A stretch of DNA of 48,768 nt from Parcubacteria bacterium C7867-005. GTDB lineage: Bacteria > Patescibacteriota > Minisyncoccia > Phycocordibacterales > Zambryskibacteraceae. The notes under the pieces are model-generated. The model ran no database searches. It saw nothing but the letters and a program-made list of their open reading frames with translations, and was not told the DNA's origin. Of this stretch, positions 2,407-46,495 are shown piece after piece (the stretch's first letter is position 1; every line of letters begins with the position of its first letter). The stretch spans positions 1-48,768 of the forward strand of contig LFCO01000003.1 in the NCBI GenBank assembly GCA_001189165.1, written 5' to 3'. The position numbers and the translations under genes are program-made.

Positions 2407-3178
2407 TTTTTTCTTTTAACGGAACGAGAACAAAGGCGTAGTTTTCATCATTTTCAGATCTGAAAATAGGAGTGATAACACCTGAGCTTATATCTTCATC
2501 CAGATAAACATTAACCTCGTCAGAAAAAGATTTTTTGATTCTAGAGACGAGACCCGCATGATCACTCTCATCCTTCTCCACAACAAGACCAACCGTTTCT
2601 ACCTCACTCTTCTCTGTACTGTTTGCACCAATAACAGCTGCAACAAAACTCTTCTCAGAACTCTGCTCAGTACCAAATCCGATCGCCCTAGACAAACCAG
2701 AGGCAACATTTATAAAACTTTCTGACATATGTGGCAAAGTATAGTCAGCCCAGGAGACAACCATAATTGTCGAGAGTAGTGTCGCGGATACTCTGGCAGC
2801 TATTGCTCTAGTAATATTGACTCCTACTCTGGATTCTTTGCGCTTCAAAAGCTCGGGTAGCCGTGGTGCACTGTCCTTTTCATAAACGATTGTTGAATTG
2901 TTTATGGCATTAACAGTAGATTCATTGATCAAATTTTTTTCAGCATCTAACCTCGATTTACTCTTTTGATTTCTTAAGTTTTTATTTTTTCTACTTTTAG
3001 ATTTCGAGTGGAGAGTGATTGCATCTAGCTCTACATACCACGACCTACCGATCATTTTGCCCGGCAGCTGACCATTCCTAACGAGTGATCCAACGTAGTC
3101 CTGGGAATATCCAAAACTTTCAGCAGCTCGCCCAGCCGATATGTATCTCTTGTTGTCGAGAAAAAGATCTTTGTTCAT
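2399..3178 (-). CDS. HTH-domain protein with a central hydrophobic segment (possible membrane-anchored regulator)
   Basis: ORF track, 259 aa. N-terminus ISAGRAAESFGYSQDYVGSLVRNGQLPG...SWYV looks like an excisionase/MerR-type HTH. A basic linker follows, then the hydrophobic stretch ATLLSTIMVVSWA. Overlaps the surface-protein gene, consistent with one operon. Confidence 0.6.
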   Translation of the reverse strand: MNKDLFLDNKRYISAGRAAESFGYSQDYVGSLVRNGQLPGKMIGRSWYVELDAITLHSKSKSRKNKNLRNQKSKSRLDAEKNLINESTVNAINNSTIVYEKDSAPRLPELLKRKESRVGVNITRAIAARVSATLLSTIMVVSWADYTLPHMSESFINVASGLSRAIGFGTEQSSEKSFVAAVIGANSTEKSEVETVGLVVEKDESDHAGLVSRIKKSFSDEVNVYLDEDISSGVITPIFRSENDENYAFVLVPLKEKND

Positions 3179-3186
3179 TGCTATAA

Positions 3187-3192
3187 ATTATA
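3187..3192 (-). promoter_or_regulatory. -10 box TATAAT, 8 nt upstream of ATG 3178 (leaderless-type promoter)
   Basis: Minus strand reads TATAAT-ttatagca-ATG. No purine-rich SD lies in between. Confidence 0.55.
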
Positions 3193-3418
3193 GTTCTCAT
3201 TTCCTAAATAGCCTATGCATTTTTCAAATTTAAATGTGGACAACCACGGCTTAAAATATAGTTAGTTTTCAAAACTCAAAAATAATAATTTTGTTTTTTA
3301 AGTTAATAAATTCACTAGTTAGTAAGTCATGAGTCAACCAGATCTTATCAACATATAGATACTTTGATACTAATTACTAATGATGCTAATATTGTCTATA
3401 TAGGATTATTAATCTTTA

Positions 3419-3424
3419 TATAAG
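3419..3424 (+). promoter_or_regulatory. Candidate -10 box TATAAG, 8 nt upstream of ATG 3433
   Basis: Plus strand reads TATAAG-aatcactc-ATG. A weaker hexamer than the other cases. Confidence 0.35.
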
Positions 3425-3432
3425 AATCACTC

Positions 3433-3669
3433 ATGAAAGAAGTTTATTTTTCAATTAAGGAGGCAGCAGAAATACTTGGAGTAACTCCCCTTACCCTTAG
3501 GAACTGGGACAAGTCAGGTAAATTTAGAGCAAACCGTCACCCTATGAATAACTACAGGGTTTACAAATTATCTGCTTTAGAAAAAATTATTGAGGACATA
3601 GAGACAGGTACAACAAAGAGCAAGGCGGAAAAGGTTATCAAAAAGCTAATGATCAGACATCTGGAATAA
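3433..3669 (+). CDS. Small MerR/excisionase-type helix-turn-helix DNA-binding protein
   Basis: ORF track, 78 aa. FSIKEAAEILGVTPLTLRNWDKSGKF...YRVY is a typical HTH_17/MerR-like N-terminus. Confidence 0.7.
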   Translation: MKEVYFSIKEAAEILGVTPLTLRNWDKSGKFRANRHPMNNYRVYKLSALEKIIEDIETGTTKSKAEKVIKKLMIRHLE

Positions 3670-3681
3670 GCTATAAATAGC

Positions 3682-3712
3682 AAAAAAAGACACCCTTGGG
3701 TGTCTTTTTTTG
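3682..3712. terminator. Bidirectional intrinsic terminator between convergent genes
   Basis: aaaaaaAGACACCcttgGGTGTCTttttttt: a GC stem flanked by an A-run and a T-run, placed between the stop at 3669 (+) and the gatB stop at 3721 (-). Confidence 0.75.
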
Positions 3713-3720
3713 TTTATTGT

Positions 3721-7484: not shown

Positions 7485-8034
7485 CTGGCGGTAATGTACA
7501 AGCCGTAGTTTCAGCCAAGACCTCTAATGCTATCGTGCCACCAATACGCGCACCGGGTGCTATCGTCCATTTGTCGCCTTTTGCAACAGGGGCTGTGGGT
7601 GTATAAACAACCACAGGGCCTACAAGCCAAGATACTAGGTCTGGTTTATAACTATTCCTACAGGCCTGTGACCCATCATCTTTAGTACATTGATGAGGGG
7701 TCACTGAGCTCGTTAAGTCAAAGCTCTTTTGAAAATCCCAAGTAGGATAGCCGGTAATCTTCGCTGCTTCGCAAATCAAGTTCTGAGATTTACCATCTGG
7801 ATTAGAACATTCAACGTAAGGTAATAACTTCTGAGCCTTACCAAAGGCAGCTTTCTGTTCTTGGCAATGTGGACACCAAAAAGCACCGTAAAATGTGGCT
7901 CCGCTATCCTTTATACAAGTAGCAAATGAATCATACTTAGAGGCAACTTGCTTGCCTGGAGTTTTCACTAGCCACACCACACAAGCCACAAAAACAACCC
8001 CCACAATAAACCATATCAATGTATTTCTTTTCAT
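7477..8034 (-). CDS. Membrane-anchored thioredoxin-fold protein (CPHC active site), probable DsbA/BdbD-like partner
   Basis: The track ORF starts at a TTG (8049). I prefer the in-frame ATG 8034 (MKRNTLIWFIVGVVFVACVVW, an N-terminal anchor) because TATAAT lies 6 nt upstream. The FYGAFWCPHCQEQK motif is present. Confidence 0.8.
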   Translation of the reverse strand: MKRNTLIWFIVGVVFVACVVWLVKTPGKQVASKYDSFATCIKDSGATFYGAFWCPHCQEQKAAFGKAQKLLPYVECSNPDGKSQNLICEAAKITGYPTWDFQKSFDLTSSVTPHQCTKDDGSQACRNSYKPDLVSWLVGPVVVYTPTAPVAKGDKWTIAPGARIGGTIALEVLAETTACTLPPDA

Positions 8035-8040
8035 GGGCGT

Positions 8041-8046
8041 ATTATA
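8041..8046 (-). promoter_or_regulatory. -10 box TATAAT, 6 nt upstream of ATG 8034 (leaderless-type)
   Basis: Minus strand reads TATAAT-acgccc-ATG. Confidence 0.55.
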
Positions 8047-8057
8047 CAAGATTTGTT

Positions 8058-10553
8058 TTATCCTAGTCTATGGTGAGGAGCACTAATAAGACCGCACTGT
8101 TTGAATTTGTATATCTTGCCTGTTTCTGGATTAATTGCCCCACAAGGACATGGATCATTTCGACCGATATCTTTAGAAGATGTAGCGAACCTATTAGAAT
8201 CTGACACGGACATTGCCTCTAATTCTATTGTTGATGCTTCAACTTTCTTCAAAGACTCTGGCTCAAGTGCTATCAAAAATTCAGCAACATGCTTTGACAC
8301 AGAGAATTCCATTTCCTTAAAAAACCGCAAACCTTCTTTTTTGTACTCTACCAAAGGATCCCTCTGTCCATAGGCACGCAGATTTACCGAACCCCTTAAA
8401 TACTCCATCATTTCTAGATGGTCAACCCAAAACATATCTATCGTCTGTAAAATTACCCTACGAAGAGCGTCCAGAACAACCGGATCTTCCAATGAAGATA
8501 TTTTATTTAACAATTTTTTTGATAAATCCTGTTCTATCTGATCAGCAACCGAATGCAAATAGTCGTCTATGTCTCCCTTATCTCCAGATAGAATTTTCCT
8601 CCTCTGTCCATAGATGACAGACCTCTGGTGGTTCAAAACGTCATCGAAATCGAGAACGTGTTTCCTGGCATCAAAATTGAACCCTTCTATCTTTTCTTGT
8701 GCCTTTTCCAAAGATCTAGTGATGAGTTTATTCTGAATCGGTTCATCTTCAGGTATGTTAAACCTACCCATCATAGACTTGATACTATCTGTGGCAAAAA
8801 TCCTCATCAAGTTGTCTTCTAAACTCACAAAAAACTGAGTTTCTCCTGGGTCTCCTTGCCTGCCCGACCTTCCTCTTAGCTGATTATCAATTCTGCGAGC
8901 GTCATGCCTTTCAGTACCGAGAACAAAAAGTCCTCCGAGCTCCTTAACTTCATCTGAAGCGTCCTTGGATCCTGGATTACCGCCCAGTTTTATATCAACT
9001 CCTCTGCCAGCCATATTCGTAGCAATAGTGACCGCTCCCCTTTTACCAGCTTGAGCAATAATTTCTCCCTCCCTCTCATGATTCTTTGCATTCAAAATCT
9101 CATGGTTGATACCCTCTGAAGTTAGGTGAGCAGAAAGCAATTCATTGTGTTCTATAGATACTGTGCCAATGAGAACGGGCTGGCCCTTGGTATTTAGCTC
9201 TTTAACCTTATTAGAAACCGCCTTCATCTTGCCATTTTGTGTTTGAAATATTAAATCATTTTGATCTAGTCTCGACACCTTACGATTTGTTGGTATAACA
9301 AAAGTATCCAAACCATATACTTTGTAGAATTCTTCCTTGGAAGTTATGGCTGTACCGGTCATACCAGAAAGTTTTTTATACATTCTGAAATAGTTTTGAA
9401 AGGTTATAGACGCAAAGGTCTTGGACTCTTCTTTGATATTTACTCCCTCCTTGGCCTCAATGGCCTGATGCAGGCCTTCAGACCACCTTCTGCCTGGTTG
9501 CATCCTCCCAGTAAATTGATCAACAATAATAATCTCGCCATCTTTGACAACATATTCTTTATTATTGTTATACAGAGCCTGCGCGCGGACCGCCGTCTCA
9601 AGATGATGAACGTATTTCACTCCACCGGTTGTGTATATATTATCTATACCCAAAAGTGACTCTGCTTTAGTTATACCCTTATCAGTAAGACTGATAGCGT
9701 GTAACTTTTCATCCACAGTAAAATCTTCTTCGAGAGTTAGCTTCGAAGCGATGGAAGCAAATTTACTATATAAATCTCCCGCAGTCCCAGTATTTGAAGA
9801 AATGATAAGCGGGGTGCGAGCTTCGTCTATGAGAATAGAATCTATTTCGTCTACAATCGCATAACTAAAGGGTCCTTGTGCCAAATCTGATTTTCTATAA
9901 ACGAGATTGTCTCTAAGGTAGTCGAAGCCAAATTCGTTGTTGGTTCCATAGATAATATCTGCTTTATAAGCCTCTTGCTTGGAAGTTGGGCGTAAAAATT
10001 CATGCACAACATGAAATGAACCTATTTCATCTCTCTCGTTATCCCTATTTTTATGTTCAGGGTCATATATATATGATGCGGCATGATTCAACACTCCAAT
10101 AGACAAACCAAGATAAGAGTACACTTGCCCCATCCAAACCGCATCACGTCTAGAAAGATAATCATTAACAGTAACTACATGCACGCCCTGACCAGAAAGT
10201 GCATTCAGATACGCCGAGAGGGTTGCTACCAAAGTCTTACCTTCCCCAGTACGCATCTCAGCTATTCCTCCCTTATGTAAAGCAATACCGCCCAGAAGTT
10301 GGACATCGAAATGTCGCTGACCAAGGGTTCTCATGGCAGACTCACGAACTACAGCGAAGGCCTCTGGGAGAAGACTGTCGAGTGACTCACCCTTTATAAA
10401 TCTTTCTTTAAATTCTACTGTCTTCAATCTAAGATCCTCTGGTGAGAGGTTTTTTAGAGTGTTTTCTAGAGTGTTTGTCTTATCCACCAATATCTGCCAG
10501 GAAGAGAGCATTTTTTCCTCTTCTGACTTAAATAAATTGCTCAAAAATGCCAT
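8058..10553 (-). CDS. secA: Preprotein translocase ATPase SecA
   Basis: ORF track, 834 aa from GTG 10562. ATG 10553 is preferred on promoter spacing. Shows DEAD-like motor motifs (MRTGEGKTLVATL, DEIDSILIDEARTPLIIS, TNMAGRGVDIKLGG) and a C-terminal Zn finger, CPCG...CG. Confidence 0.95.
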   Translation of the reverse strand: MAFLSNLFKSEEEKMLSSWQILVDKTNTLENTLKNLSPEDLRLKTVEFKERFIKGESLDSLLPEAFAVVRESAMRTLGQRHFDVQLLGGIALHKGGIAEMRTGEGKTLVATLSAYLNALSGQGVHVVTVNDYLSRRDAVWMGQVYSYLGLSIGVLNHAASYIYDPEHKNRDNERDEIGSFHVVHEFLRPTSKQEAYKADIIYGTNNEFGFDYLRDNLVYRKSDLAQGPFSYAIVDEIDSILIDEARTPLIISSNTGTAGDLYSKFASIASKLTLEEDFTVDEKLHAISLTDKGITKAESLLGIDNIYTTGGVKYVHHLETAVRAQALYNNNKEYVVKDGEIIIVDQFTGRMQPGRRWSEGLHQAIEAKEGVNIKEESKTFASITFQNYFRMYKKLSGMTGTAITSKEEFYKVYGLDTFVIPTNRKVSRLDQNDLIFQTQNGKMKAVSNKVKELNTKGQPVLIGTVSIEHNELLSAHLTSEGINHEILNAKNHEREGEIIAQAGKRGAVTIATNMAGRGVDIKLGGNPGSKDASDEVKELGGLFVLGTERHDARRIDNQLRGRSGRQGDPGETQFFVSLEDNLMRIFATDSIKSMMGRFNIPEDEPIQNKLITRSLEKAQEKIEGFNFDARKHVLDFDDVLNHQRSVIYGQRRKILSGDKGDIDDYLHSVADQIEQDLSKKLLNKISSLEDPVVLDALRRVILQTIDMFWVDHLEMMEYLRGSVNLRAYGQRDPLVEYKKEGLRFFKEMEFSVSKHVAEFLIALEPESLKKVEASTIELEAMSVSDSNRFATSSKDIGRNDPCPCGAINPETGKIYKFKQCGLISAPHHRLG

Positions 10554-10562
10554 AAGAAGCAC

Positions 10563-10571
10563 ATTTTAGCA
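10563..10571 (-). promoter_or_regulatory. Extended -10 TGcTAAAAT, 9 nt upstream of secA ATG 10553
   Basis: Minus strand reads TGCTAAAAT-gtgcttctt-ATG. Confidence 0.5.
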
Positions 10572-10583
10572 TATTTAGACAAA

Positions 10584-10616
10584 GAAAAAACGCTCCTTGC
10601 GGGGAGCGTTTTTTCG
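10584..10616 (-). terminator. Intrinsic terminator downstream of the small basic ORF
   Basis: aaaaaaCGCTCCttgcggGGAGCGtttttt: a GC stem flanked by A and T runs. It lies between the ORF stop (10630) and the secA promoter. Confidence 0.7.
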
Positions 10617-10924: not shown

Positions 10925-13108
10925 TTAGTTCAATGTTCCGTTTTGAATTCCTAGAATATATTCTTCTGCTTTATCTTTATATTCTGGAATTTCTTTTATC
11001 AAGTTATTTAGAACTTCCAAAGCCTTTGCCCTTTCTCCAGACCTCAAATATGCTCCGGCCAAATCTACATATCCTTGTGATGCTTTTGGATTTAGCTTAA
11101 CTCTTTCTGACAAAAAGCTTTGCAAAAGAGCGTACCTACCCGTATCAAGCAATACCCTTGCTATACGATCGTCCCCGGCGATTGTGGGCAAATTCAATGT
11201 TTGAAGCAATGTATTTATTAATGCACTATCGTTTGTGTAGAGTGCTCCAAGGAAATAGAAAATCTGCGCTTCGTTATATTTAGGGGCCATGTCGTATGCT
11301 TTTTTGAATAGCTTCATGGCCTCTGGATAATTTTTAGTTGAAAGCAGAGTGGTACCTTGTTCTAAGTACACAACTTGTTTAGATGGGATTAGTTTTTCTG
11401 CTTTTTTCAAATAAGCCAGTGCTTCATCTGGAAAGCCTGCTCTACTGAAAAACGAACCAGCAATAATCATATGTCTCGCGTCATTCTCTGATTTCTTTGT
11501 CTGCTCTTCTAAGACTTTTTTGGTGTAATTGAAATATTCTGTCTTAGCTTCAGCTGCAATTCCACTAGAGAAAACATTGGACCCAGATGTAGCCAGCCAC
11601 TCAACAGTTTCTGGTCTCCCCAATCTTGATCCTTCGTATGCATTTTTGAAGTAACCCAAGGCGTCAGTCTTTTTTGAATCATCGGCTTGAACAGATTGAA
11701 GTCCGTGGATAAGGTTGAGGTTGGCACTGATCGGTTTTATGTTAACGAAATAAAGCGTAATGACCAAGACAATAACTACTGGCAAAACTATGAGGTACGG
11801 AGCTCGTATAGGAATATCTTTTACGTTTAACTTATTTTCTTTCACACCAACAGTTCTACTATGAACATACCCTAGGAATGAGAAGAACAATATGTAGCTA
11901 ATGAGATGATCAAACACAAACAAGTTGTGGAAGAAGTACCCAGCAAGTAAACCCGTGAGAACAGAGCTTTCAGCAAAGGATAGATTCGTACCTTTCTTCC
12001 ATACAGAATAAAGCAACACGATATAAAGTGAGAGATAGCTGATCAGACCAAGCATTCCCCCAGCGATGCCCCAGTCTAGGAATATATTGTGGGCTCGATC
12101 AAACCATGGCTCCAAACGAAACATCGCCGGACTATAATTCTTACTAAAAACATCACTGAAATTTTCCTGACCCCAGCCAAAGAGTGGTTTTTCTTGAATA
12201 CCTTTTATAGCCATGGGCCAAACAAAAGATCTACCCTCGGTTTCTATCTGAGCGAGACTGATAGAAGCAAACCTACTCAGGACTTCACTCTCTCTAACGA
12301 AGGCTGTGTTGCGGGCCATATAAAAACTACCAACCAGGATAAAGAGTCCAATCAAAATACTGAAACTAAATTTCTTCATACCTTTTGATTCTCTGTTCCT
12401 TACATTCAGTAGAGCCACCAAAAGCACTCCTCCGATTAGACCCAGTATGCTACCTCTTGTTGCTGTGTGGTAAAGAATAAAAACCTGACAAAAAACCAAA
12501 CCACCGTATATCCATCGAAGATACGATTCACTGTTTTGCCTAACGAAAAACATAATAGCCATAAATATATGGAACAACATATAGACAGCCAGATATGCAG
12601 CATTACCAAAAGTACCATCAACACGGACCCCTCCCTGATTTATCTCCGCTACCCCCAAAAGCTGAGAAGTGCAGTAAAGAACCATTATAAAAGATGCTAC
12701 TAGAGATGTGTTCCACCAATAGTGCCAGTTCTCCTGTTTAAATATAGATGTTGTTACCAAAAAGAATGCGCCTAAGTGGAGAAGGGTCACAAAACCTTCC
12801 ATTCGCTCATAATTAGACCAGAAGCTCTTCGCAGGAGATTCCCCGAGAAGATTAGCTAACCCGATAATCACAAAAAATGCCAACAGCGCATAAACTATGG
12901 CAGATCTTTTTGGTCTGTACTCTGGTGCCATGACCACCAGGATCAACCATGAGGCAAAAACAATTTCTATGATAATCCTGAAGGCAAAAGCCTTGGTCGT
13001 TATAAATGGGAAAAACAAAGAACTAGAAACAAGGAAGGGTACGAATGGTACTAAAAACAAACCGCCCAAAGCTATCCACTTGAAAGTATCTTTATTCATA
13101 GGAATCAT
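10925..13108 (-). CDS. O-antigen ligase/polymerase-like (Wzy_C-type) membrane protein fused to C-terminal TPR repeats
   Basis: ORF track, 727 aa with many TM helices. Has the RAHNIFLDWGIAGGMLGL ligase-loop signature and a TPR-like C-terminus (YPEAMKLFKKAYDMAPKYNEA). The alternative start ATG 13099 fits the promoter spacing better. Confidence 0.8.
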   Translation of the reverse strand: MIPMNKDTFKWIALGGLFLVPFVPFLVSSSLFFPFITTKAFAFRIIIEIVFASWLILVVMAPEYRPKRSAIVYALLAFFVIIGLANLLGESPAKSFWSNYERMEGFVTLLHLGAFFLVTTSIFKQENWHYWWNTSLVASFIMVLYCTSQLLGVAEINQGGVRVDGTFGNAAYLAVYMLFHIFMAIMFFVRQNSESYLRWIYGGLVFCQVFILYHTATRGSILGLIGGVLLVALLNVRNRESKGMKKFSFSILIGLFILVGSFYMARNTAFVRESEVLSRFASISLAQIETEGRSFVWPMAIKGIQEKPLFGWGQENFSDVFSKNYSPAMFRLEPWFDRAHNIFLDWGIAGGMLGLISYLSLYIVLLYSVWKKGTNLSFAESSVLTGLLAGYFFHNLFVFDHLISYILFFSFLGYVHSRTVGVKENKLNVKDIPIRAPYLIVLPVVIVLVITLYFVNIKPISANLNLIHGLQSVQADDSKKTDALGYFKNAYEGSRLGRPETVEWLATSGSNVFSSGIAAEAKTEYFNYTKKVLEEQTKKSENDARHMIIAGSFFSRAGFPDEALAYLKKAEKLIPSKQVVYLEQGTTLLSTKNYPEAMKLFKKAYDMAPKYNEAQIFYFLGALYTNDSALINTLLQTLNLPTIAGDDRIARVLLDTGRYALLQSFLSERVKLNPKASQGYVDLAGAYLRSGERAKALEVLNNLIKEIPEYKDKAEEYILGIQNGTLN

Positions 13109-13115
13109 GTTAGCA
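13107..13115 (-). promoter_or_regulatory. Extended -10 TGcTAACAT, 7 nt upstream of ATG 13099
   Basis: Minus strand reads TGCTAACAT-gattcct-ATG. The first ATG (13108) lies inside the hexamer. Confidence 0.4.
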
Positions 13116-13153
13116 CTGAATCCAAGTGGCTAGCAATAAAATCTTTTATCTAC

Positions 13154-13159
13154 TAGTAT
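13154..13159 (+). promoter_or_regulatory. -10 box TAGTAT, 7 nt upstream of ATG 13167 (leaderless-type)
   Basis: Plus strand reads TAGTAT-caaagca-ATG. Confidence 0.45.
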
Positions 13160-13166
13160 CAAAGCA

Positions 13167-16788: not shown

Positions 16789-16795
16789 TCACGAC

Positions 16796-16801
16796 ATTAT
16801 A
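16796..16801 (-). promoter_or_regulatory. -10 box TATAAT, 7 nt upstream of ATG 16788 (leaderless-type)
   Basis: Minus strand reads TATAAT-gtcgtga-ATG. Confidence 0.55.
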
Positions 16802-16847
16802 CCCCCATAGATAGCCATAACAAGCTTGTCTGTGTCTTGAGATTTTA

Positions 16848-17946: not shown

Positions 17947-17952
17947 AAGTCT

Positions 17953-36367: not shown

Positions 36368-36373
36368 TGAGTC

Positions 36374-36379
36374 ATTATA
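36374..36379 (-). promoter_or_regulatory. -10 box TATAAT, 6 nt upstream of ATG 36367 (start of the long minus-strand glycan operon)
   Basis: Minus strand reads TATAAT-gactca-ATG. Confidence 0.55.
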
Positions 36380-36402
36380 GCTTTATAACGAAGCTTAATA
36401 AA

Positions 36403-36411
36403 TGCTATAAT
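36403..36411 (+). promoter_or_regulatory. Extended -10 TGcTATAAT, 7 nt upstream of ATG 36419 (leaderless-type)
   Basis: Plus strand reads TGCTATAAT-cgccacc-ATG. Confidence 0.6.
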
Positions 36412-36418
36412 CGCCACC

Positions 36419-37570
36419 ATGAAGATAGTCATAGCTACTCCGATCTACCCACCAGAGATAGGTGGGCCAGCCACTTATACCAAGGAACTCTGCGAAAGAT
36501 TACACAGTGAACACAGTATTACTGTAGTCGCCTACACAGATGTACAAGAAGCTTTTAGTGGGACAAAGCTGGTCGCAGTAAGTAAGAATAGGCCACTACC
36601 AATTAGATTAATAAAATATTTTATCGCTGTTTGGAAGGTGAGCGAGGGTGCAGATTTGATATATGTACAAAATGCCATGGCAGCTGGGTTGCCCGTGGCG
36701 TTGGTTTCTATCTTTAGAAAGATACCTTTTGTATTAAAATTTGTCGGAGACGAGGCGTGGGAGAGAGCTACCCAACATAAATTAACTGAAAAACGATTAG
36801 AGGAATTCTTATCATCACCTGAAGGTGGGCTAAAAATCAAACTAATGATGATGGTTCAGGGTTTTGTCCTAAGACGAGCAAAGAAAGTAACTACCCCATC
36901 TGTTTATCTCCTAGAGGAGTTGAAAAAAACTTATGGTGTATCCGAAATTCAGGCTGTAGTTAATTACAATGCGGCAGAAGATACAGAGGTTCTGCCCTTC
37001 GACGCACACAAAATCCCTCACCAGATAGCCACAACTGCAAGGCTAGTAGCTTGGAAAGGGATAGACGGTATGATGAGAGCCTTAAAAATAGTTCTAAGAA
37101 ATTTCCCTGACGCCACACTTGTAGTAGCTGGTGATGGTCCAGAAATGAAAAATCTAGAGGCTCTTCGTACAGAGCTTGGTTTAGAAAATTCAGTAACCTT
37201 GCTTGGTAAGATATCCAGAGCAGAAACATGGCAACTAAGAAAGAGATCTGAGGTATACGTATTAAATTCTACGTACGAAGGACTGCCACATACAGTACTC
37301 ACAAGCTTTGCTGCAGAAATACCCACTGTGGCTACAAATATCCCTGGTACAAACGAAGCTGTCTACCATGAAAAAACAGGTCTATTAGTAGAACCGGGGG
37401 ATGCAGAAGCTCTGGCTACAGCTATTGAAAGATATTTTAATAACCCTGAGTTCGGACAGAAAATGGCCAAGCAGGGGTTAACACTACTAAAGGAGAAATT
37501 TTCTTGGGAAGCACATATAAAAAACCTAAACGATATTTTTAAGTCTATTGTCTCTAAGCCAAGTAATTAG
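36419..37570 (+). CDS. GT4-family glycosyltransferase
   Basis: ORF track, 383 aa. NSTYEGLPHTVLTSFAAEIPTV. Confidence 0.8.
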   Translation: MKIVIATPIYPPEIGGPATYTKELCERLHSEHSITVVAYTDVQEAFSGTKLVAVSKNRPLPIRLIKYFIAVWKVSEGADLIYVQNAMAAGLPVALVSIFRKIPFVLKFVGDEAWERATQHKLTEKRLEEFLSSPEGGLKIKLMMMVQGFVLRRAKKVTTPSVYLLEELKKTYGVSEIQAVVNYNAAEDTEVLPFDAHKIPHQIATTARLVAWKGIDGMMRALKIVLRNFPDATLVVAGDGPEMKNLEALRTELGLENSVTLLGKISRAETWQLRKRSEVYVLNSTYEGLPHTVLTSFAAEIPTVATNIPGTNEAVYHEKTGLLVEPGDAEALATAIERYFNNPEFGQKMAKQGLTLLKEKFSWEAHIKNLNDIFKSIVSKPSN

Positions 37571-38494: not shown

Positions 38495-38536
38495 ATAATT
38501 GCAGAAAAGATAAGGCTACTATAGGATGAAACGGCA

Positions 38537-39595
38537 ATGAAATCAAACATGAATCTAGAGAAAATAGCCTCAATCATTGCTCCACTGGGCTTTGAATTAG
38601 ACGAAGAACAACCTCACATGAAGGGCGAGCGATTCCTCATGATGAAAAACAAATATGTGCTCTCGGCCACTACAGATAAAGGTAATAAGGTGATCTTAAA
38701 AATTGCTCACCACGAAGATGGTAAGAAAGAAATAATGGATGAAAAACTCAATAGAGATGTGCTGACATCTGTAGTTTTTTCAAATGACCGCTTGATGGTG
38801 CCAGAAGAAATTTATTTCGGTATTAAGGATGGGCATCTTGTCTGGGCCACAGCCTTCATCCCTCAAGAAAAAGTGTTTGTCGCCCATTCAATTGAAGATC
38901 AATTTTTCAAGATATTGAGGGTTTTTGAAGAACAAGAAGCATTCCATGCCACAACCTTTGAACACCTCAAGTCTATCAGCAAAGTCTTTCCTGTATTTCA
39001 TGCCAAAGAATACTTCGAGGAGTTTAAGAAATTTGCAAACTCTGTATCTAAAAACATTAAGGATAGAAACTTGGATGACTTGATGTCCGATGCCTATGAA
39101 CTGTTGGTTTCAAATAAAAAAAATATAGATGAGTTCTCAAACTATTTGACCCATACTGATTTTGTCCCTCATAATTTTCGCATTAGAGGTAATGCGATAT
39201 TCATGCTCGACTTATCCTCTGTCCATTTTGGGAACAAATACGAAGGATGGGCCAGATTTATGAATTATATGGTCATACATAACCCACACTTAAACAAACT
39301 CTTGTCTGAATATGTGTTGAAAAATAGAGGGGTGAAAGAGCAACTTTCTCTGCGTTTAATGCGTATATATAAAATAGGTTTTCTGCTTCAATTTTATGGA
39401 GCCTCTCTGTCCAAAACCGAAGGCGATCTGCAAAAACTTACTATGGAGAGGATTAGCTTCTGGCAAACAATACTTGAACACCTGGTAAATAATGAGGAGG
39501 TGCCTGAATCTTTTGTAGAATCATACAAAGATATCAGGGATAATCTACGCTCCAAGGATGAGAAGGATCGCCAAAAAGAATTTGCTATCGCTTAA
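38537..39595 (+). CDS. Aminoglycoside/choline-kinase-like phosphotransferase family protein
   Basis: ORF track, 352 aa. LTHTDFVPHNFRI (HxDxxxxN catalytic loop), followed by FMLDLSS. Confidence 0.65.
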   Translation: MKSNMNLEKIASIIAPLGFELDEEQPHMKGERFLMMKNKYVLSATTDKGNKVILKIAHHEDGKKEIMDEKLNRDVLTSVVFSNDRLMVPEEIYFGIKDGHLVWATAFIPQEKVFVAHSIEDQFFKILRVFEEQEAFHATTFEHLKSISKVFPVFHAKEYFEEFKKFANSVSKNIKDRNLDDLMSDAYELLVSNKKNIDEFSNYLTHTDFVPHNFRIRGNAIFMLDLSSVHFGNKYEGWARFMNYMVIHNPHLNKLLSEYVLKNRGVKEQLSLRLMRIYKIGFLLQFYGASLSKTEGDLQKLTMERISFWQTILEHLVNNEEVPESFVESYKDIRDNLRSKDEKDRQKEFAIA

Positions 39596-40213: not shown

Positions 40214-40996
40214 CTATATCAAGATGGGTTTAAGGGCATTTAGGATTTCCTCTGAGTTGACTGCAATTATCTGCTGCTTTTCCTTAGACAGACCACTTAT
40301 TGGTACACCCCCCTTGCCCAAGATCAGCCCTCCAGCCTCGTACAAGAGCCCCACAGCCGCGGCGATGTCTATGGTGGTAAGGGTGCCGTAAATATTGGCC
40401 TCTACCCTGCCTGAAGCCACATAACACATATCAAGCCCCGAGCTCCCCAGATTGGCGCACTTAACCCCATTTTGGAGGAGGAATTTGTATGAGTCTGCTC
40501 CCCAATTCCAAAGATCTTTATTTCTACCCGCACGGAGTAGCATGTAGGACTCACCAAGACTTTTAATGTTTGATATCTTTATTGGTCGACCGTTCAGAAA
40601 AGATCCCTTGCCCTTTTGAAAACTGTAGAGTTCATCAGTGGCTGGATTATAAAGTGCACCAACTACAGGAACTCCTTTCTCAACATAAGCAACTACAACA
40701 GCGTAGTGTGGAATGTGTCGAGAGAAATTGCTCGTACCATCTATCGGGTCAAGAGACCAAAATGATCCTGAAGAAATATCTTCATCAGTAGCCTCTTCTG
40801 AATATATCGCTTCGCCCGCGAATCCCTCTCGTATTCTAGTACTCAAAAATTCACTAATCTCCAAGTCAGCTTTGGTGACGATGTCTAATGGATTACCATC
40901 CTTAAAAGATTTCTCAATATCTGTATGAACATACTCTTGGAGTTTCCATCCAGCTTCCTTGACTAATCCTAATATGAAGTCGTATCTATTTTTCAT
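40214..40996 (-). CDS. Inositol monophosphatase/SuhB/CysQ-family phosphatase
   Basis: The track ORF starts at TTG 41014. ATG 40996 (MKNRYDFILG) is preferred on promoter spacing. Has WSLDPIDGTSNF and GSSGLDMCYVASG motifs. Confidence 0.85.
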   Translation of the reverse strand: MKNRYDFILGLVKEAGWKLQEYVHTDIEKSFKDGNPLDIVTKADLEISEFLSTRIREGFAGEAIYSEEATDEDISSGSFWSLDPIDGTSNFSRHIPHYAVVVAYVEKGVPVVGALYNPATDELYSFQKGKGSFLNGRPIKISNIKSLGESYMLLRAGRNKDLWNWGADSYKFLLQNGVKCANLGSSGLDMCYVASGRVEANIYGTLTTIDIAAAVGLLYEAGGLILGKGGVPISGLSKEKQQIIAVNSEEILNALKPILI

Positions 40997-41002
40997 AAAA
41001 TC

Positions 41003-41011
41003 AATATAGCA
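41003..41011 (-). promoter_or_regulatory. Extended -10 TGcTATATT, 6 nt upstream of ATG 40996 (leaderless-type)
   Basis: Minus strand reads TGCTATATT-gatttt-ATG. Overlaps the left copy of the 9-bp direct repeat. Confidence 0.55.
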
Positions 41012-42962: not shown

Positions 42963-44640
42963 CTACCCCTAAGAGTGCTTTGAGTTCGGTCTCAGGGATT
43001 TCGTTAGTTTGTTTTTTGGGTTCACTTTTTAATTCAACAGATTTTTCCAGGTTGGGCCTTGGGGCAACGTGCGGTTTATTGGAGACAGGTTCTGACTTGA
43101 TCATGCTCGAGAGGATATTTTTCAAATCTGAAACATGCTTAGGACTAGGGTTTCTCTGATTATTACTTTTTTGTTTCAAACTATCCAAGGAAATAGCTTT
43201 CAGTGGTTTAAAATCATCTGTCGGCTCTTCTCTCTTGATCACCTCTTTCTGAACCTGCCTCTCTTCTTTCTTCTCCACTCTTTCTTCTCTGTACTCAGGT
43301 TTTTTACCACGAAAATCTATAGCTTTTAGAGCTTTTGGATTTGCTCTACCATCTTCTTGCCAGTCTGAAATTTCTTTTTCGATCATCGCCCTTGGACGAG
43401 CAAAAGTTTTCCTTGAATACTCGATGATTTCATCCATTAGAGACGTTTCCTGTTTCTTGATCGGAGGCAAAGTAGTGGCTGAAAAAGGTTGAGAACTAAC
43501 CCCATCTATCATGAGCTTCAAATATACTTGTGCGAATCCGAGATTTACCAAATCCTCTGCAGTAAAGGTTGGGGAAAATTCTTTCTCTAGTATCTCGGCG
43601 TCATAGGCACCGACACGAAAGACAATCATGGTACCGACGTTTCCAAACACCGCGGCCCTAACTTCTTCTGACATCTGCTCTATGTACTGATGAGCGATAG
43701 TGAGGTTTAGTTTATATTTACGGGCTTCAGAGAGAATATCTGCAAAAGATTCGTTGGCAAAAGATTGAAATTCGTCTACGTATAGATAGAAGTTTGGAAG
43801 CTTTTGTAGATTAGCCTCTGATTTGTCTGCACGACTCATGGCTGCCAAATAAATCTTGGTGATGAGCATCGAACCGAGCAGGTTTGCATTCGCTTCACCC
43901 ACACGACCCTTGGACAGGTTTATGATGAGGATCTTGCCTTCATCCATGATCTCTCGGATATCAAAGCTCGACTTCGACTGTCCTATGATATTTCGAATCA
44001 AAGGATTAGAAGTGAACTGACCAATCTTGTTTTGTATGGCTGGGATAGCTTCTGCAGCAAATCTTTCTGTATATCCGGCGAACTCTTGCGTCCAGTAAGT
44101 TTTCACAGATGAATCAGTGACGTTGGCCACGACCTTATCTCTATACACCTTATCTACAAGCATTTTGTTGATGCCGAGCATCGTAGCACCTGGATATTCA
44201 AGTAAAGCGAGGATCGTGTTCTGCAAGATGTACTGCATACGGTCAGAAAAGCTCTCTTCTCCAAAAAGTTTCTTGAAGGCGCTCATTAGCCCGTTAGCCA
44301 CGAGGTGGCGTTTATCAGGGCCAACATCTTCCATCACATTAAAGGATATCGGATGTTCTATATCAAATGGCGCAAAATAAACCACATCTTGCTTCCTATG
44401 CTCTGGTACATATTCAAGCAGCAAATCAGCCGTTTTGCCGTGTGGGTCAACAAAAGCTATGCCCTCACCACTCTGGATGTCTTGCACTGCCATATTCTCA
44501 AGCAGGGTCGACTTACCCATGCCTGTTTTCCCTATAACATAAACATGTTTTAACCTGTCTTTGGATTTGATACCAAAAGCCACGCGCTTGTTGCGAGAAT
44601 CAGTTTCAGCAAAGTACGTGATCTTGTCCGGATCGATCAT
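42955..44640 (-). CDS. Type IV secretion coupling-protein-like (TraD/VirD4/DUF87-type) P-loop ATPase without an N-terminal TM anchor, with a K/E-rich C-terminal tail
   Basis: ORF track, 561 aa. Walker A is IGKTGMGKST, then FVDPHGKTAD, Walker B FYLYVDEFQSF and LTIAHQYIEQM. The last ~130 aa are low-complexity and charged. Confidence 0.7.
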   Translation of the reverse strand: MIDPDKITYFAETDSRNKRVAFGIKSKDRLKHVYVIGKTGMGKSTLLENMAVQDIQSGEGIAFVDPHGKTADLLLEYVPEHRKQDVVYFAPFDIEHPISFNVMEDVGPDKRHLVANGLMSAFKKLFGEESFSDRMQYILQNTILALLEYPGATMLGINKMLVDKVYRDKVVANVTDSSVKTYWTQEFAGYTERFAAEAIPAIQNKIGQFTSNPLIRNIIGQSKSSFDIREIMDEGKILIINLSKGRVGEANANLLGSMLITKIYLAAMSRADKSEANLQKLPNFYLYVDEFQSFANESFADILSEARKYKLNLTIAHQYIEQMSEEVRAAVFGNVGTMIVFRVGAYDAEILEKEFSPTFTAEDLVNLGFAQVYLKLMIDGVSSQPFSATTLPPIKKQETSLMDEIIEYSRKTFARPRAMIEKEISDWQEDGRANPKALKAIDFRGKKPEYREERVEKKEERQVQKEVIKREEPTDDFKPLKAISLDSLKQKSNNQRNPSPKHVSDLKNILSSMIKSEPVSNKPHVAPRPNLEKSVELKSEPKKQTNEIPETELKALLGVDE

Positions 44641-44647
44641 TTTCTAC

Positions 44648-44653
44648 AGTATA
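44648..44653 (-). promoter_or_regulatory. -10 box TATACT, 7 nt upstream of ATG 44640 (leaderless-type)
   Basis: Minus strand reads TATACT-gtagaaa-ATG. Confidence 0.5.
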
Positions 44654-44671
44654 CAACAAATATTATTTAGT

Positions 44672-44701
44672 TTGACAGAATGAACCCCTCACAAGTAACA
44701 T
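44672..44701 (+). promoter_or_regulatory. Sigma70-type promoter TTGACA-N18-TAACAT for the cassette-3 gene
   Basis: A perfect -35 hexamer at 44672-44677 and TAACAT at 44696-44701. The GAGAGGA SD-like tract ends 6 nt before ATG 44735. Confidence 0.5.
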
Positions 44702-44734
44702 GCAATAAGACCACCTGAACCAGAGAGGATCACG

Positions 44735-45034
44735 ATGCTACACACAGAAAGAAGGCCCGGCCACAACGAGTGGCTTGGCCTGAAGGGGGCACTCCAGAGC
44801 TGTGGTGCCACTGTCGAACTCGAGATGTTAAAGATCATCGAACTCGACGGGCATATCTCCACCTGTCGTCATCCGCACATCCGGCGGGAGCATGTCCTGA
44901 ATGCCAACCGGTTGTTCGAGGAACTCCATCACGGTTGGCGTATCCTGGATGAGCGTGGCCAACCGTGGCCGACTGAGGAAGATGAGCTCTACATCTTTCC
45001 CACGAATCACCCGCGGACATCCACGACCGCCTGA
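44735..45034 (+). CDS. Orphan 99-aa protein of unknown function, high-GC codon usage
   Basis: ORF track. Preceded by an SD-like GAGAGGA and followed at once by a hairpin terminator. The antisense ORFs in the same segment look like GC artefacts. Confidence 0.55.
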   Translation: MLHTERRPGHNEWLGLKGALQSCGATVELEMLKIIELDGHISTCRHPHIRREHVLNANRLFEELHHGWRILDERGQPWPTEEDELYIFPTNHPRTSTTA

Positions 45035-45052
45035 CCCCCCTCATCGGGGGTC
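45033..45052 (+). terminator. Hairpin terminator of cassette 3
   Basis: GACCCCC-ctcatc-GGGGGTC followed by ttcttaatt. It overlaps the TGA stop codon. Confidence 0.65.
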
Positions 45053-45055
45053 TTC

Positions 45056-46237
45056 TTAATTATCTGCTTCAGATAATTCTGGTGTCTCTGGGAATAGGGC
45101 GGACACCGTGTATTTATTACCAGCATTCCACAAGATCCATGAGGTTAGCCCCAGATCATAAGTAGCTTGTATTTGTGCACGAACTTCATCTGGCCCATAG
45201 TTCGCCCCCATATTAAAATCCTGAAGCCAGGGGCGTAGTTTGGACGGCGTAGAGCTCGCAGCTACTGCCTTATCTATTCCTCCCTGCATGGATAGCTTGA
45301 TGATGTCATATGGATGTGATGCCGGATTTTTATAACCATTCCAATTCGACGGATAATGAGATGGGTAAACCATCGGCGAAACATAGTCAAAATATGGCAA
45401 AGTTTTCTCGAGCACCTGTCCAATACCTAGATCATCCTTATTCGTAGTCGTCATGCCGAACAAATCAGCAGAAGTGACAATACCCGTCCCATAAAGCTCT
45501 TCATGGAGATAAGAAAAGAAGCTTTCAAGCATCTCCGGTTTTGTAGAAGTTCCCACGTTCCAGCTATAAACGGTATCCTTCATGTTTCCATCCGAAGGGT
45601 ATCGGATATAATCGTAATTAAGTTCATCAAACCCCAGTTCGTACGACACCTTTGAAAGATTTACCACGTATTCCCAATAAGGTTTCGCGCCAACATCTAT
45701 AAACGAGAGCCCCTTATAGTCTCTCCACACACCGCCCGTCGACTTGGATCTGACCGCGAGCTCAGGATGGAGCTTTGTATAATATGGATCTTGGAAAACT
45801 GTGATCCTCCCTATCACATAAATATTATTCTTATGTAACTCTTCTATATATTCTTTTAAATCAGATACTCGACAACCAGGAGCACCAGGTGCTTGGATAT
45901 CTGGATCAATAAAAGAAATCGTCCCCGAATAATCTTTGATATCTATAACAATAGAGTTAAGTTCTGTTTTGTTAACAAGCTCCATGAGCGACTTCCTCCA
46001 AGAGGGGGTGCCCGCGACACATGCGGTCATATAAATAGCCTTAACAGCTTCTGGTGTTTTGACGTGAATCGTTTCTGGCTTTTTTAATAAATCTGAATCT
46101 GTTTTATAAACAGTACTTAAGGAATCGTAGTTTGATTTTGTAACCAAAGGTAGAACTATGGCCACAAAGCATAAAAGAAAAAGGAAACCAAGAAATATTT
46201 TGCCGAAAGATTTTGGTTTTTTATCAACCGGCATCAA
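45056..46237 (-). CDS. Membrane-anchored putative glycoside hydrolase (TIM-barrel, DUF4015-like)
   Basis: ORF track, 393 aa with an N-terminal TM. AIYMTACVAGTPSWRKSLMELVNKTELNSIVIDIKDYSG and GRITVFQDPYY resemble the putative glycosyl-hydrolase family I know as DUF4015. Confidence 0.55.
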   Translation of the reverse strand: MMPVDKKPKSFGKIFLGFLFLLCFVAIVLPLVTKSNYDSLSTVYKTDSDLLKKPETIHVKTPEAVKAIYMTACVAGTPSWRKSLMELVNKTELNSIVIDIKDYSGTISFIDPDIQAPGAPGCRVSDLKEYIEELHKNNIYVIGRITVFQDPYYTKLHPELAVRSKSTGGVWRDYKGLSFIDVGAKPYWEYVVNLSKVSYELGFDELNYDYIRYPSDGNMKDTVYSWNVGTSTKPEMLESFFSYLHEELYGTGIVTSADLFGMTTTNKDDLGIGQVLEKTLPYFDYVSPMVYPSHYPSNWNGYKNPASHPYDIIKLSMQGGIDKAVAASSTPSKLRPWLQDFNMGANYGPDEVRAQIQATYDLGLTSWILWNAGNKYTVSALFPETPELSEADN

Positions 46238-46482
46238 AGGCTTGGATTAGAGTTCGACTGATTTTTAATCTCTTGCTCTATTGAAGCCCGCTTTCTGGCT
46301 TGCCTCTTTTGCACACGCGCCTTCAAAGACAACCTTCTGTCTATGGATATCATGACCGACAAGAGAACGATGGAGAGACCAAAGACAACCTCAAAAAAAG
46401 ATTCCCAAGAATTAGGAAAGCCGAGGACTGGTAGAAGTGCTATGAGGAATCCAAGAGTAAGAATTATTTTACTTTTAGGCAT
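46234..46482 (-). CDS. Small membrane protein (two TM helices, basic C-terminus)
   Basis: ORF track, 82 aa. Has a leaderless-type promoter and forms an ATGA-type overlap with the downstream gene. Confidence 0.55.
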   Translation of the reverse strand: MPKSKIILTLGFLIALLPVLGFPNSWESFFEVVFGLSIVLLSVMISIDRRLSLKARVQKRQARKRASIEQEIKNQSNSNPSL

Positions 46483-46489
46483 GCCTCGT

Positions 46490-46495
46490 ATTATA
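46490..46495 (-). promoter_or_regulatory. -10 box TATAAT, 7 nt upstream of ATG 46482 (leaderless-type)
   Basis: Minus strand reads TATAAT-acgaggc-ATG. Confidence 0.55.

What the first reader, a model, noticed from the sequence alone, without database searches (positions are those of the whole stretch)
3176..46495. Leaderless-type promoters: a -10 box 6-9 nt upstream of the start codon at essentially every operon-first native gene
Read on the coding strand:
- TATAAT-N8-ATG (3178)
- TATAAT-N6-ATG (8034)
- TGcTAAAAT-N9-ATG (10553)
- TGcTAACAT-N7-ATG (13099)
- TAGTAT-N7-ATG (13167)
- TATAAT-N7-ATG (16788)
- TAATAT-N6-ATG (17953)
- TACACT-N7-ATG (19537)
- TATACT-N8-ATG (19602)
- TATAAT-N6-ATG (36367)
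- TGcTATAAT-N7-ATG (36419)
- TGcTATATT-N6-ATG (40996)
- TATACT-N7-ATG (44640)
- TATAAT-N7-ATG (46482)

This spacing puts the transcription start on or next to the A of the ATG. In several cases it also argues for an internal ATG over the longer TTG/GTG ORF in the track (8034, 10553, 19537, 40996). Together with the missing anti-SD, this points to predominantly leaderless initiation.
Basis: partly seen in the sequence, partly recalled or inferred. Interest (0 to 1): 0.7.

Follow-up and report, generated by a model that had tools for sequence, protein, structure and literature searches.

The report
Leaderless promoters in anti-SD-less Parcubacteria
In this uncultivated ultrasmall bacterium, whose ribosomal RNA has lost the usual mRNA-docking sequence, most transcription units have a promoter -10 box directly against the start codon, so their mRNAs probably begin at the AUG; this mode of gene expression is known from other phyla.

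Summary
All 14 listed -10-like boxes sit exactly where stated, 6-9 nt upstream of an ATG.

- **Enrichment:** 10 of 22 operon-first genes carry a near-consensus box at that spacing, against 1.1 ± 1.0 in shuffles. By a looser rule the count is 15 of 22 against 2.6 ± 1.5. Among native operon-first genes it is 15 of 17.
- **Promoter features:** the boxes carry an extended -10 TGn in 45% of cases and a T/TTG at the -35 position 17 bp upstream. They are absent before operon-internal genes. They precede only ATG, never GTG or TTG.
- **Conservation:** box and spacing are conserved at orthologous genes in four relatives with 74-78% SecA identity, while the flanking sequence diverges.
- **Organism and rRNA:** the contig is from a Parcubacteria (CPR/Patescibacteria) bacterium. 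Its 16S 3' end lacks CCUCC, as do 117 of 120 related metagenomic 16S ends.
- **Shine-Dalgarno (SD) motifs:** they are at chance level (8 of 43 genes against 5 expected). Three GC-rich, evidently foreign genes are among the few that carry one.

The best reading is sigma-70 promoters that produce leaderless or nearly leaderless mRNAs. This matches GeneMarkS-2 "group C", but without SD use for the remaining genes. Transcription starts are unmapped, so the mechanism is inferred. I found no paper reporting this for CPR; the anti-SD loss itself is published.

The parts
3176..3195 (-). TATAAT (3187-3192), N8, ATG (3176-3178). Gene upstream of the giant ORF.
   Evidence: Orthologues keep TATAAT/TACAAT-N7/8-ATGAATAA(A/G)GA.
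3416..3435 (+). TATAAG (3419-3424), N8, ATG. MerR-type HTH gene.
   Evidence: GTTTATATAAG block is conserved in relatives with variable spacing.
8032..8049 (-). TATAAT (8041-8046), N6, ATG. Thioredoxin-like gene, 23 nt after the secA stop.
   Evidence: TATAAT/TAATAT-N6-ATG in all 5 genomes.
10551..10571 (-). TGcTAAAAT (10563-10571), N9, ATG of secA.
   Evidence: TGnTAA(A/G)AT-N9-ATG is invariant in 5 genomes while flanks diverge. SecA M1 invariant.
10584..10615 (-). Terminator-like hairpin plus T-run, directly abutting the secA -10 box.
13097..13115 (-). TGcTAACAT, N7, ATG. Wzy_C/TPR gene; start revised from 13108.
   Evidence: Orthologues start MNK with TGnTA(A/C)CAT-N8/9.
13151..13169 (+). 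TAGTAT, N7, ATG. Polysaccharide-synthesis (flippase-family) gene, divergent partner of 13099.
   Evidence: TGgTAGCAT-N6 in L084 and L085.
16786..16804 (-). TATAAT, N7, ATG; TTGTTA -35 at 16 bp.
17938..17955 (+). TGaTAATAT, N6, ATG. Glycosyltransferase family 8 gene; the box follows terminator hairpin 17893-17913.
19535..19553 (-). TACACT, N7, ATG. Methyltransferase; start revised from TTG 19573. TTGCAA -35 at 17 bp.
   Evidence: The start was not independently verified.
19585..19604 (+). TATACT, N8, ATG. C-methyltransferase gene.
36365..36382 (-). TATAAT, N6, ATG. First gene of the 16-gene glycosylation operon 20891-36367.
36403..36421 (+). TGcTATAAT, N7, ATG. Divergent partner; two back-to-back promoters in a 51-bp spacer.
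38519..38539 (+). TAGGAT, N9, ATG; TTGCAG -35 at 17 bp.
40994..41011 (-). TGcTATATT, N6, ATG. Inositol monophosphatase; start revised from TTG 41014. The box directly follows a GC-rich hairpin.
44638..44656 (-). TATACT, N7, ATG.
46480..46498 (-). TATAAT, N7, ATG.
47044..47090 (-). 16S rRNA helix 45 and 3' tail. GGAGTAATTCAATTTG stands where GGATCACCTCCTTA would be; there is no anti-SD.
   Evidence: 117 of 120 related 16S ends also lack CCTCC.

Best explanation
These are sigma-70-type promoters placed so that transcription starts on, or 1-3 nt before, the A of the start codon.

The promoter consists of a -10 hexamer TAnnnT, often extended by TGn, with a weak -35 (T/TTG) 17 bp upstream. The hexamer ends 6-9 nt before the ATG, most often 6-7 nt.

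The resulting leaderless mRNA is presumably recognised through its 5'-terminal AUG, by a 70S ribosome or by 30S with IF2 and initiator tRNA. No SD:anti-SD pairing is needed, which fits a 16S rRNA that has lost CCUCC.

Downstream genes in operons overlap the preceding gene by 4-20 nt or follow it within 9 nt or less. They are probably translated by termination-reinitiation coupling.

Shown here: the motif, its spacing, its enrichment, its restriction to operon-first genes and to ATG, its conservation in relatives, the loss of the anti-SD, and the absence of SD motifs. Inferred: the position of the transcription start, and the mode of ribosome recruitment for both first and internal genes.
For: - **Sites and enrichment:**
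- **First versus internal genes:** strict box in 10 of 22 first genes, against 3 of 47 internal genes (1.8 expected).
- **Promoter architecture:** 42 promoters aligned on the hexamer show T at -3 in 25, G at -2 in 24, TGn in 19, and T at -23 in 30, followed by T and G enrichment. This is an extended -10 plus a -35 at a 17-bp spacer.
- **Phylogenetic footprints:** secA has TGnTAA(A/G)AT-N9-ATG and the thioredoxin-like gene has TATAAT-N6-ATG in five genomes, with divergent flanks.
- **Gene-call-free test:** in 661 kb from 119 anti-SD-less relatives, TATAAT is followed by an ORF-opening ATG 25, 13, 10 and 6 times at offsets 6, 7, 8 and 9, against about 2.6 per offset elsewhere. Low-GC non-CPR controls show no such peak but a clear SD peak.
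- **ATG only:** in a larger set (window plus relatives, 821 kb) with boxes of at least 5/6 matches, the count at offsets 6-9 is 218 against 85 expected for ATG. There is no excess for GTG (42 against 46) or TTG (68 against 73).
- **Anti-SD and SD:** anti-SD absent. SD core present upstream of 8 of 43 genes, against 5.0 expected.
- **Published framework:** a Pribnow box 6-8 nt from the start marks bacterial leaderless genes (PMC6028130).
Against: - No transcription start site data exist for this organism or for any Parcubacteria.
- The N8-N9 cases, including the conserved secA promoter, would give a 1-3 nt leader if the usual 6-7 nt distance between the -10 box and the start holds.
- One native operon-first gene (38494) has its best box at N23, so it probably has a short SD-less leader.
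- Orthologous promoters in relatives are not independent observations.
- Public gene calls used for the relatives may themselves favour starts near such motifs.
- The generic two-hexamer promoter scan is not enriched overall (46 against 48.8 in shuffles), so the signal lies in the -10-to-ATG spacing and not in promoter density.
Confidence: 0.8

Rival explanations
1. The boxes are real promoters, but initiation is not strictly leaderless. Transcripts would start a few nucleotides upstream, giving 1-5 nt leaders. Alternatively, additional upstream promoters would give leadered, SD-less mRNAs that dominate expression.
For: N8-N9 spacing occurs at 3178, 19602, 10553 and 38537. The secA N9 spacing and its CTT-ATG are invariant across relatives. 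Gene 38494 has only a distal box at N23.
Against: The excess in the clade-wide data is concentrated at offsets 6 and 7, which puts the canonical start on the A. mRNAs with leaders of 5 nt or less are treated as leaderless in mycobacterial studies (my own knowledge, not checked here). The terminator hairpins that abut the boxes at 10553 and 40996 leave no room for an upstream promoter.
Confidence: 0.12
2. The TA-rich hexamer is a non-SD translation signal on leadered mRNAs, as in the Bacteroidetes-type 'group B' genomes, and not a promoter.
For: The organism lacks an anti-SD, so some other ribosome-binding signal might be expected. A mild excess of loose matches occurs before internal genes (10 of 47 against 4.6 ± 2.0).
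Against: A group-B signal should precede first and internal genes alike (PMC6028130). Here strict matches are 10 of 22 for first genes against 3 of 47 for internal genes. The motif equals the sigma-70 -10 consensus, with TGn and a -35-position T at 17 bp.
Confidence: 0.05
3. The pattern is a chance product of AT-rich intergenic DNA and of choosing convenient ATGs.
For: The genome is 41% GC with AT-rich spacers.
Against: Dinucleotide shuffles that allow the same freedom of ATG choice give 1.07 ± 0.99 against 10 observed. A gene-call-free offset test shows the peak in 661 kb of relatives and none in controls. Box and spacing are conserved at orthologues.
Confidence: 0.02

Closest known systems
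Bacterial genomes with frequent leaderless transcription (GeneMarkS-2 'group C': Actinobacteria such as M. tuberculosis, and Deinococcus-Thermus; PMC6028130)
   Same: A Pribnow-type -10 box lies 6-8 nt upstream of the start codon of first genes in operons and is absent at internal genes. The start codon sits at or next to the transcript's 5' end.
   Different: In group C, the remaining genes use SD sites and the anti-SD is intact. Here the 16S has no CCUCC and SD cores are at chance level. Here only ATG follows the box, whereas mycobacteria also use GTG (my own knowledge, not checked here). The lineage is CPR/Parcubacteria, with a low-GC, very small genome.
Anti-SD-lacking Parcubacteria (Tsurumaki et al. 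2022, RNA 28:1041; PMC9297842)
   Same: Same clade and same loss of the CCUCCU motif at the 16S 3' end. That paper detects the motif in only 48% of Parcubacteria.
   Different: That paper reports the loss and its overlap with uL1-lacking lineages. The passages I read give no account of how translation starts. The promoter-at-start-codon architecture is what this finding adds.
Archaeal leaderless genomes (GeneMarkS-2 'group D', for example Haloferax and Halobacterium)
   Same: A majority of transcription units are leaderless.
   Different: The archaeal promoter box lies about 22-26 nt upstream and is read by TBP/TFB, not by a sigma-70 factor at a -10 hexamer.
Bacteroidetes-type non-SD initiation (GeneMarkS-2 'group B')
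   Same: Little or no use of SD pairing.
   Different: Group B mRNAs are leadered, the motif precedes all genes, and the anti-SD sequence is retained. None of these holds here.

Membership tests
Bacterial leaderless-transcription genome type (GeneMarkS-2 group C) | Pribnow-type -10 motif localised about 6-8 nt upstream of start codons of first genes in operons | tested here: met
   10 of 22 strict and 15 of 22 loose, against 1.07 and 2.6 in shuffles. Spacings over 42 promoters are N6 ×17, N7 ×8, N8 ×8, N9 ×9. The clade-wide offset peak is at 6-7.
Bacterial leaderless-transcription genome type (GeneMarkS-2 group C) | The motif is not found before operon-internal genes, which makes it a promoter rather than a ribosome-binding site | tested here: met
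   Strict box at 3 of 47 internal genes, against 1.8 expected.
Bacterial leaderless-transcription genome type (GeneMarkS-2 group C) | Internal and leadered genes use SD-type ribosome-binding sites | tested here: not met
   SD 4-mer core lies upstream of 8 of 43 genes, against 5.0 expected. Three of the eight precede the three foreign high-GC genes. The 16S lacks CCUCC.
Bacterial leaderless-transcription genome type (GeneMarkS-2 group C) | Experimentally mapped transcription starts coincide with start codons | not testable with these tools
   No transcription start data. The only CPR transcription-start set I came across in the papers read is for Nanosynbacter lyticus, a Saccharibacterium.
Sigma-70 (housekeeping) promoter | -10 hexamer TAnnnT with T1, A2 and T6, optionally extended by TGn | tested here: met
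   All 14 listed boxes are TAnnnT. TGn occurs in 19 of 42 promoters, against about 6% expected.
Sigma-70 (housekeeping) promoter | -35 element TTGACA about 17 bp upstream of the -10 | tested here: inconclusive
   T at the first -35 position in 30 of 42 promoters (10 of 15 in the window alone), with T and G enriched at the next two positions and little beyond. The generic two-hexamer scan is not enriched.
Anti-SD-lacking Parcubacteria (Tsurumaki 2022) | 16S 3' end without CCUCC(U) | tested here: met
   L005 has the same kind of tail. 117 of 120 relatives lack the motif.
Anti-SD-lacking Parcubacteria (Tsurumaki 2022) | Belongs to Parcubacteria, in lineages that overlap the uL1-lacking group | tested here: inconclusive
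   The best named SecA hits are Parcubacteria, Minisyncoccia and Zambryskibacteria at 73-75% identity. The uL1 gene could not be assessed from a 49-kb window.
Non-SD ribosome-binding-site genomes (GeneMarkS-2 group B, Bacteroidetes-like) | The same upstream motif precedes both first and internal genes on leadered mRNAs | tested here: not met
   The motif is confined to first genes and has promoter architecture.

The most novel reading that the evidence does not exclude
A large Parcubacteria lineage may have given up SD:anti-SD pairing altogether. It would then initiate translation only on leaderless 5'-AUG mRNAs, plus SD-independent reinitiation within tightly packed operons.

Leaderless promoters appear across CPR, including loci labelled Saccharimonadia that show a modest SD-like signal in the same test. 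Heavy leaderless use may therefore have preceded and permitted the loss of the anti-SD. After that loss, the freed 16S 3' tail would have evolved into a conserved small hairpin.

This would be the first bacterial lineage with genome-wide SD-free initiation built on leaderless mRNAs. It would answer the question left open when the anti-SD loss was reported.
Probability: 0.45. Interest if true: 0.7.

Novelty: new member of a known kind. Interest (0 to 1): 0.55.

Why it matters
Loss of the anti-SD in about half of Parcubacteria is published, but the passages I read give no account of how those cells start translation. This window, with about 0.8 Mb of related sequence, gives a concrete and testable answer. 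Promoters abut start codons, so first genes need no ribosome-binding site.

There are practical consequences:
- **Gene-start annotation:** starts in CPR genomes should use a leaderless model. Several public calls in relatives start inside the spacer between the -10 box and the true ATG.
- **Foreign genes:** SD-bearing foreign genes, three of them in this window, may be poorly expressed in such hosts.
- **Expression design:** constructs for the few cultivable CPR should place a -10 box 6-7 nt from the ATG.

The mechanism itself is already well known from Actinobacteria, Deinococcus and archaea. The advance is one of lineage and context, not of principle.

Tried and rejected
- **Two-hexamer promoter scan.** A generic sigma-70 scan of 1-20000 found 46 sites against 48.8 ± 8.1 in shuffles. 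It is uninformative; the signal lies in the -10-to-ATG spacing.
- **Genome scan for SecA relatives.** I used those loci as controls and obtained close relatives through the look-up of encoding contigs.
- **Apparent SD excess.** A crude SD-to-ATG offset count suggested a twofold excess in the window. Inspection showed double-counted overlapping 5-mers before internal Met codons. Only 21910 and the foreign gene 44735 are real gene starts.
- **ATG position within the ORF.** ATGs 6-9 nt after a box are the first in-frame ATG in 73% of cases, against 50% at other offsets. This is supportive but weak, because -10-like hexamers cluster upstream of genes anyway.
- **Tail hairpin in a fixed register.** Counting pairs at fixed alignment columns gave only 63% paired cells, because loop length varies. 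A register-free count was clearer.
- **Literature.** Searches combining 'leaderless' with CPR, Patescibacteria, Parcubacteria, Saccharibacteria or anti-SD found no paper describing this. The GeneMarkS-2 supplementary genome lists are not held, so I cannot exclude that some CPR genomes were already classed as group C.
- **Hidden anti-SD.** I considered that the anti-SD might lie further downstream after an insertion. There is no CCTCC in the 360-nt spacer before tRNA-Ile.


Full report
**What the window is.** The 48.8-kb window is about 41% GC and densely coding. It carries a complete 16S rRNA gene at 47053-48570 on the minus strand and a tRNA-Ile. Its SecA protein is 70-78% identical to the best 120 SecA hits. 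The named ones among them are from Parcubacteria, Minisyncoccia and Zambryskibacteria metagenome-assembled genomes. Identical contigs exist in a JGI metagenome and a Logan assembly. The organism is therefore an uncultivated CPR/Patescibacteria bacterium of the Parcubacteria group.

**Checking the observation.**
- I read back all 14 sites. Each has the stated hexamer, spacing and ATG. TGn precedes the box at 10553, 13099, 36419 and 40996 as stated, and also at 17953.
- Perfect TATAAT followed by 6-9 nt and an ATG occurs 7 times on both strands. Six of those open long ORFs that are first in their transcription unit.
- I defined 22 operon-first genes: those with a divergent upstream neighbour, or a gap of at least 20 nt after a same-strand gene.
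- Ten genes have a TAnnnT box with at least 5/6 matches to TATAAT at N6-9. Dinucleotide shuffles give 1.07 ± 0.99, with a maximum of 4 in 1000.
- Fifteen genes have a box with at least 4/6 matches, against 2.6 ± 1.5 and a maximum of 9.

**Promoter or ribosome-binding signal?** Four results point to a promoter.
- The strict box occurs at 10 of 22 first genes. It occurs at only 3 of 47 operon-internal genes in the window and four relatives, where 1.8 are expected.
- I aligned 42 such sites from five genomes on the hexamer. Position -3 is T in 25 and position -2 is G in 24, and 19 of 42 carry TGn, the extended -10. Position -23 is T in 30, followed by T and G enrichment. That is where a -35 TTG would sit with a 17-bp spacer. 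In the window alone, 10 of 15 sites have that T.
- Several boxes directly abut terminator-like hairpins of the preceding unit, at 10584-10615 before secA and before 40996. That leaves no room for an upstream promoter.
- In 821 kb from the window and related sequence (boxes with at least 5/6 matches), the excess of starts 6-9 nt after a box is specific to ATG: 218 against 85 expected. There is none for GTG (42 against 46), TTG (68 against 73) or control triplets. This fits recognition of a 5'-terminal AUG.

**Comparative evidence.** Four contigs carrying SecA at 74-78% identity keep the local gene order.
- **secA:** all five genomes have TGnTAA(A/G)AT, nine nucleotides, then ATG. The sequence further upstream is unalignable apart from a terminator T-run.
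- **Thioredoxin-like gene just after secA:** TATAAT or TAATAT, six nucleotides, then ATG in all five.
- **Gene upstream of the giant ORF:** TATAAT or TACAAT, 7-8 nt, then ATGAATAA(A/G)GA. In two relatives the public gene call starts at an ATG inside that spacer; the orthologous N-terminus MNKD argues against that call.

**A test without gene calls.** I asked how often an ORF-opening ATG (ORF of at least 60 codons) lies at each offset after TATAAT.
- A metagenome scan with the helix-45 sequence of this 16S returned 120 loci. In the 119 of these that lack the canonical anti-SD tail (661 kb), the counts at offsets 6, 7, 8 and 9 are 25, 13, 10 and 6, against about 2.6 per offset elsewhere.
- In 371 kb of low-GC non-CPR controls there is no such peak, but there is a strong SD peak.
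- Other CPR loci also show the -10 peak, including some labelled Saccharimonadia.

**The anti-SD and SD motifs.**
- The 16S ends ...GGCACGGGTAGCGGAAGCTGCTCGTGGAGTAATTCAATTTG. Helix 45 is intact, but GGAUCACCUCCUUA is replaced by an AT-rich tail. No CCTCC lies in the 360 nt before tRNA-Ile.
- A more distant relative, L005 (61% SecA identity, 55% GC), has the same kind of tail.
- Of the 120 related metagenomic 16S ends, 117 lack CCTCC and only one (L185) has the canonical GGATCACCTCCTT tail.
- An SD 4-mer core lies at -20 to -4 of 8 of 43 genes, against 5.0 expected.
- Three of those eight precede the only three compositional outliers in the window: 16926-17888 (radical SAM/SPASM), 41075-41707 and 44735-45034. 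These have GC 0.58-0.59 and GC3 0.68-0.79, against 0.35-0.45 GC for all other genes.
- These three are also operon-first genes without a proximal -10 box.

**Exceptions and start revisions.** Removing the three foreign genes and two probable operon-internal genes (25556, 40188) leaves 17 native operon-first genes.
- **Exceptions:** 15 of the 17 have the box. Gene 38494 has its best box at N23 and a secure Rossmann-type N-terminus, so it probably has a short SD-less leader. Gene 3433 has TATAAG at N8.
- **Supported revisions:**
  - 10553: SecA M1 is invariant and public calls give 831 aa.
  - 13099: orthologues begin MNK.
  - 8034: the orthologous promoter is conserved.
  - 40996: the Pfam match begins at residue 5.
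- **Unverified:** 19537 is plausible but was not checked independently.

**Mechanism.**
- **Transcription:** a housekeeping sigma factor most likely reads a -10 or extended -10 element whose last base lies 6-7 nt, and sometimes 8-9 nt, before the ATG. Transcription would then begin on the A or 1-3 nt upstream of it.
- **First genes:** translation would begin on the 5'-terminal AUG without SD pairing.
- **Internal genes:** these overlap the preceding gene by 4-20 nt or follow it within 9 nt. They are presumably translated by termination-reinitiation.
- **What is shown and what is inferred:** the sequence facts are shown. The transcription start and the ribosome-recruitment steps are inferred from established knowledge of sigma-70 promoters and leaderless translation.

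**Comparison with what is known.**
- The architecture matches GeneMarkS-2 'group C' genomes, in which a Pribnow box lies 6-8 nt from the first gene's start. These are mainly Actinobacteria and Deinococcus-Thermus (PMC6028130).
- It fails one group-C feature, the use of SD sites for the remaining genes.
- Loss of the anti-SD in about half of Parcubacteria is published. That paper notes that SD helices probably do not form, and in the passages I read it gives no initiation mechanism (PMC9297842).
- Eight full-text searches found no paper linking CPR, Patescibacteria, Parcubacteria or Saccharibacteria with leaderless mRNAs. The library is incomplete, and the GeneMarkS-2 genome tables are not held.

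**Verdict.** I class it as a new member of a known kind. The kind is bacterial leaderless gene organisation; the new lineage is one that has lost the anti-SD. Interest is moderate to good, because it gives a specific, testable answer to how these organisms initiate translation. Mapping transcript 5' ends is the decisive missing experiment.

Noticed in passing
window 16926-17888 (+), 41075-41707 (-), 44735-45034 (+): Three genes are strong compositional outliers, with GC 0.58-0.59 and GC3 0.68-0.79 against 0.35-0.45 GC elsewhere. Each lacks a start-proximal -10 box and carries an SD-like GGAG/GAGG core within about 15 nt upstream of its start. They are likely recent horizontal acquisitions keeping donor-type ribosome-binding sites in a host without an anti-SD.
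   Followed up: partly
window 47044-47070 (-); loci L005, L087-L206: The 16S 3' tail that replaces the anti-SD is an AT-rich near-palindrome (TTCAATTTGAA here). Among 106 distinct relatives, 83 can form a hairpin of at least 4 bp within the 20-nt tail, against 44.9 ± 4.8 in shuffles. Compensatory variants occur: TTCA/TGAA, TCCA/TGGA, CTC/GAG, GTC/GAC. In a fixed register only 63% of cells pair. Whether the mature rRNA keeps this tail is unknown.
   Followed up: partly
window 46618-47053 (-): The 16S gene is followed by a 360-nt spacer containing a terminator-like hairpin (aaaaccgccatcgggcggtttt), then tRNA-Ile(GAT), then protein-coding genes. No 23S gene follows, so the rRNA genes appear unlinked.
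   Followed up: no
loci L003, L005-L008, L012, L029, L036, L046: Other CPR lineages (Paceibacterota, Adlerbacteria, and loci labelled Saccharibacteria or Saccharimonadia) also show the TATAAT-to-ATG peak at offsets 6-7. The Saccharimonadia-labelled loci also show a modest excess of SD-like 5-mers before ATGs. Leaderless promoters may be CPR-wide and may predate the anti-SD loss.
   Followed up: partly
L083 18109 and L086 19313: Public gene calls in two relatives start at an ATG that lies inside the spacer between the -10 box and the start (TATAAT-tt-ATGTTG-ATGAATA...). The orthologous N-terminus MNKD points to the second ATG. Start calling in these genomes is affected by ignoring the leaderless pattern.
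   Followed up: partly
window 10630-10725 (-): A small, very basic ORF of 31 aa (MAAKKRKAAPKRKAAKRKAAPKKRKASKKRA) lies in the 371-nt gap upstream of secA. A similar 35-aa ORF occupies the same place in L083. It has no -10 box at N6-9.
   Followed up: no
window 1-2415 (-): An open reading frame of at least 805 codons runs off the left end of the window. Syntenic genes in relatives encode giant proteins of 2157 to 4644 residues with almost no Pfam hits.
   Followed up: no
window 13097-13169, 19535-19604, 36365-36421: Divergent gene pairs share spacers of only 51-67 bp, each holding two back-to-back start-proximal -10 boxes. Each promoter's -35 region therefore overlaps its partner's -10 region or start codon.
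   Followed up: no
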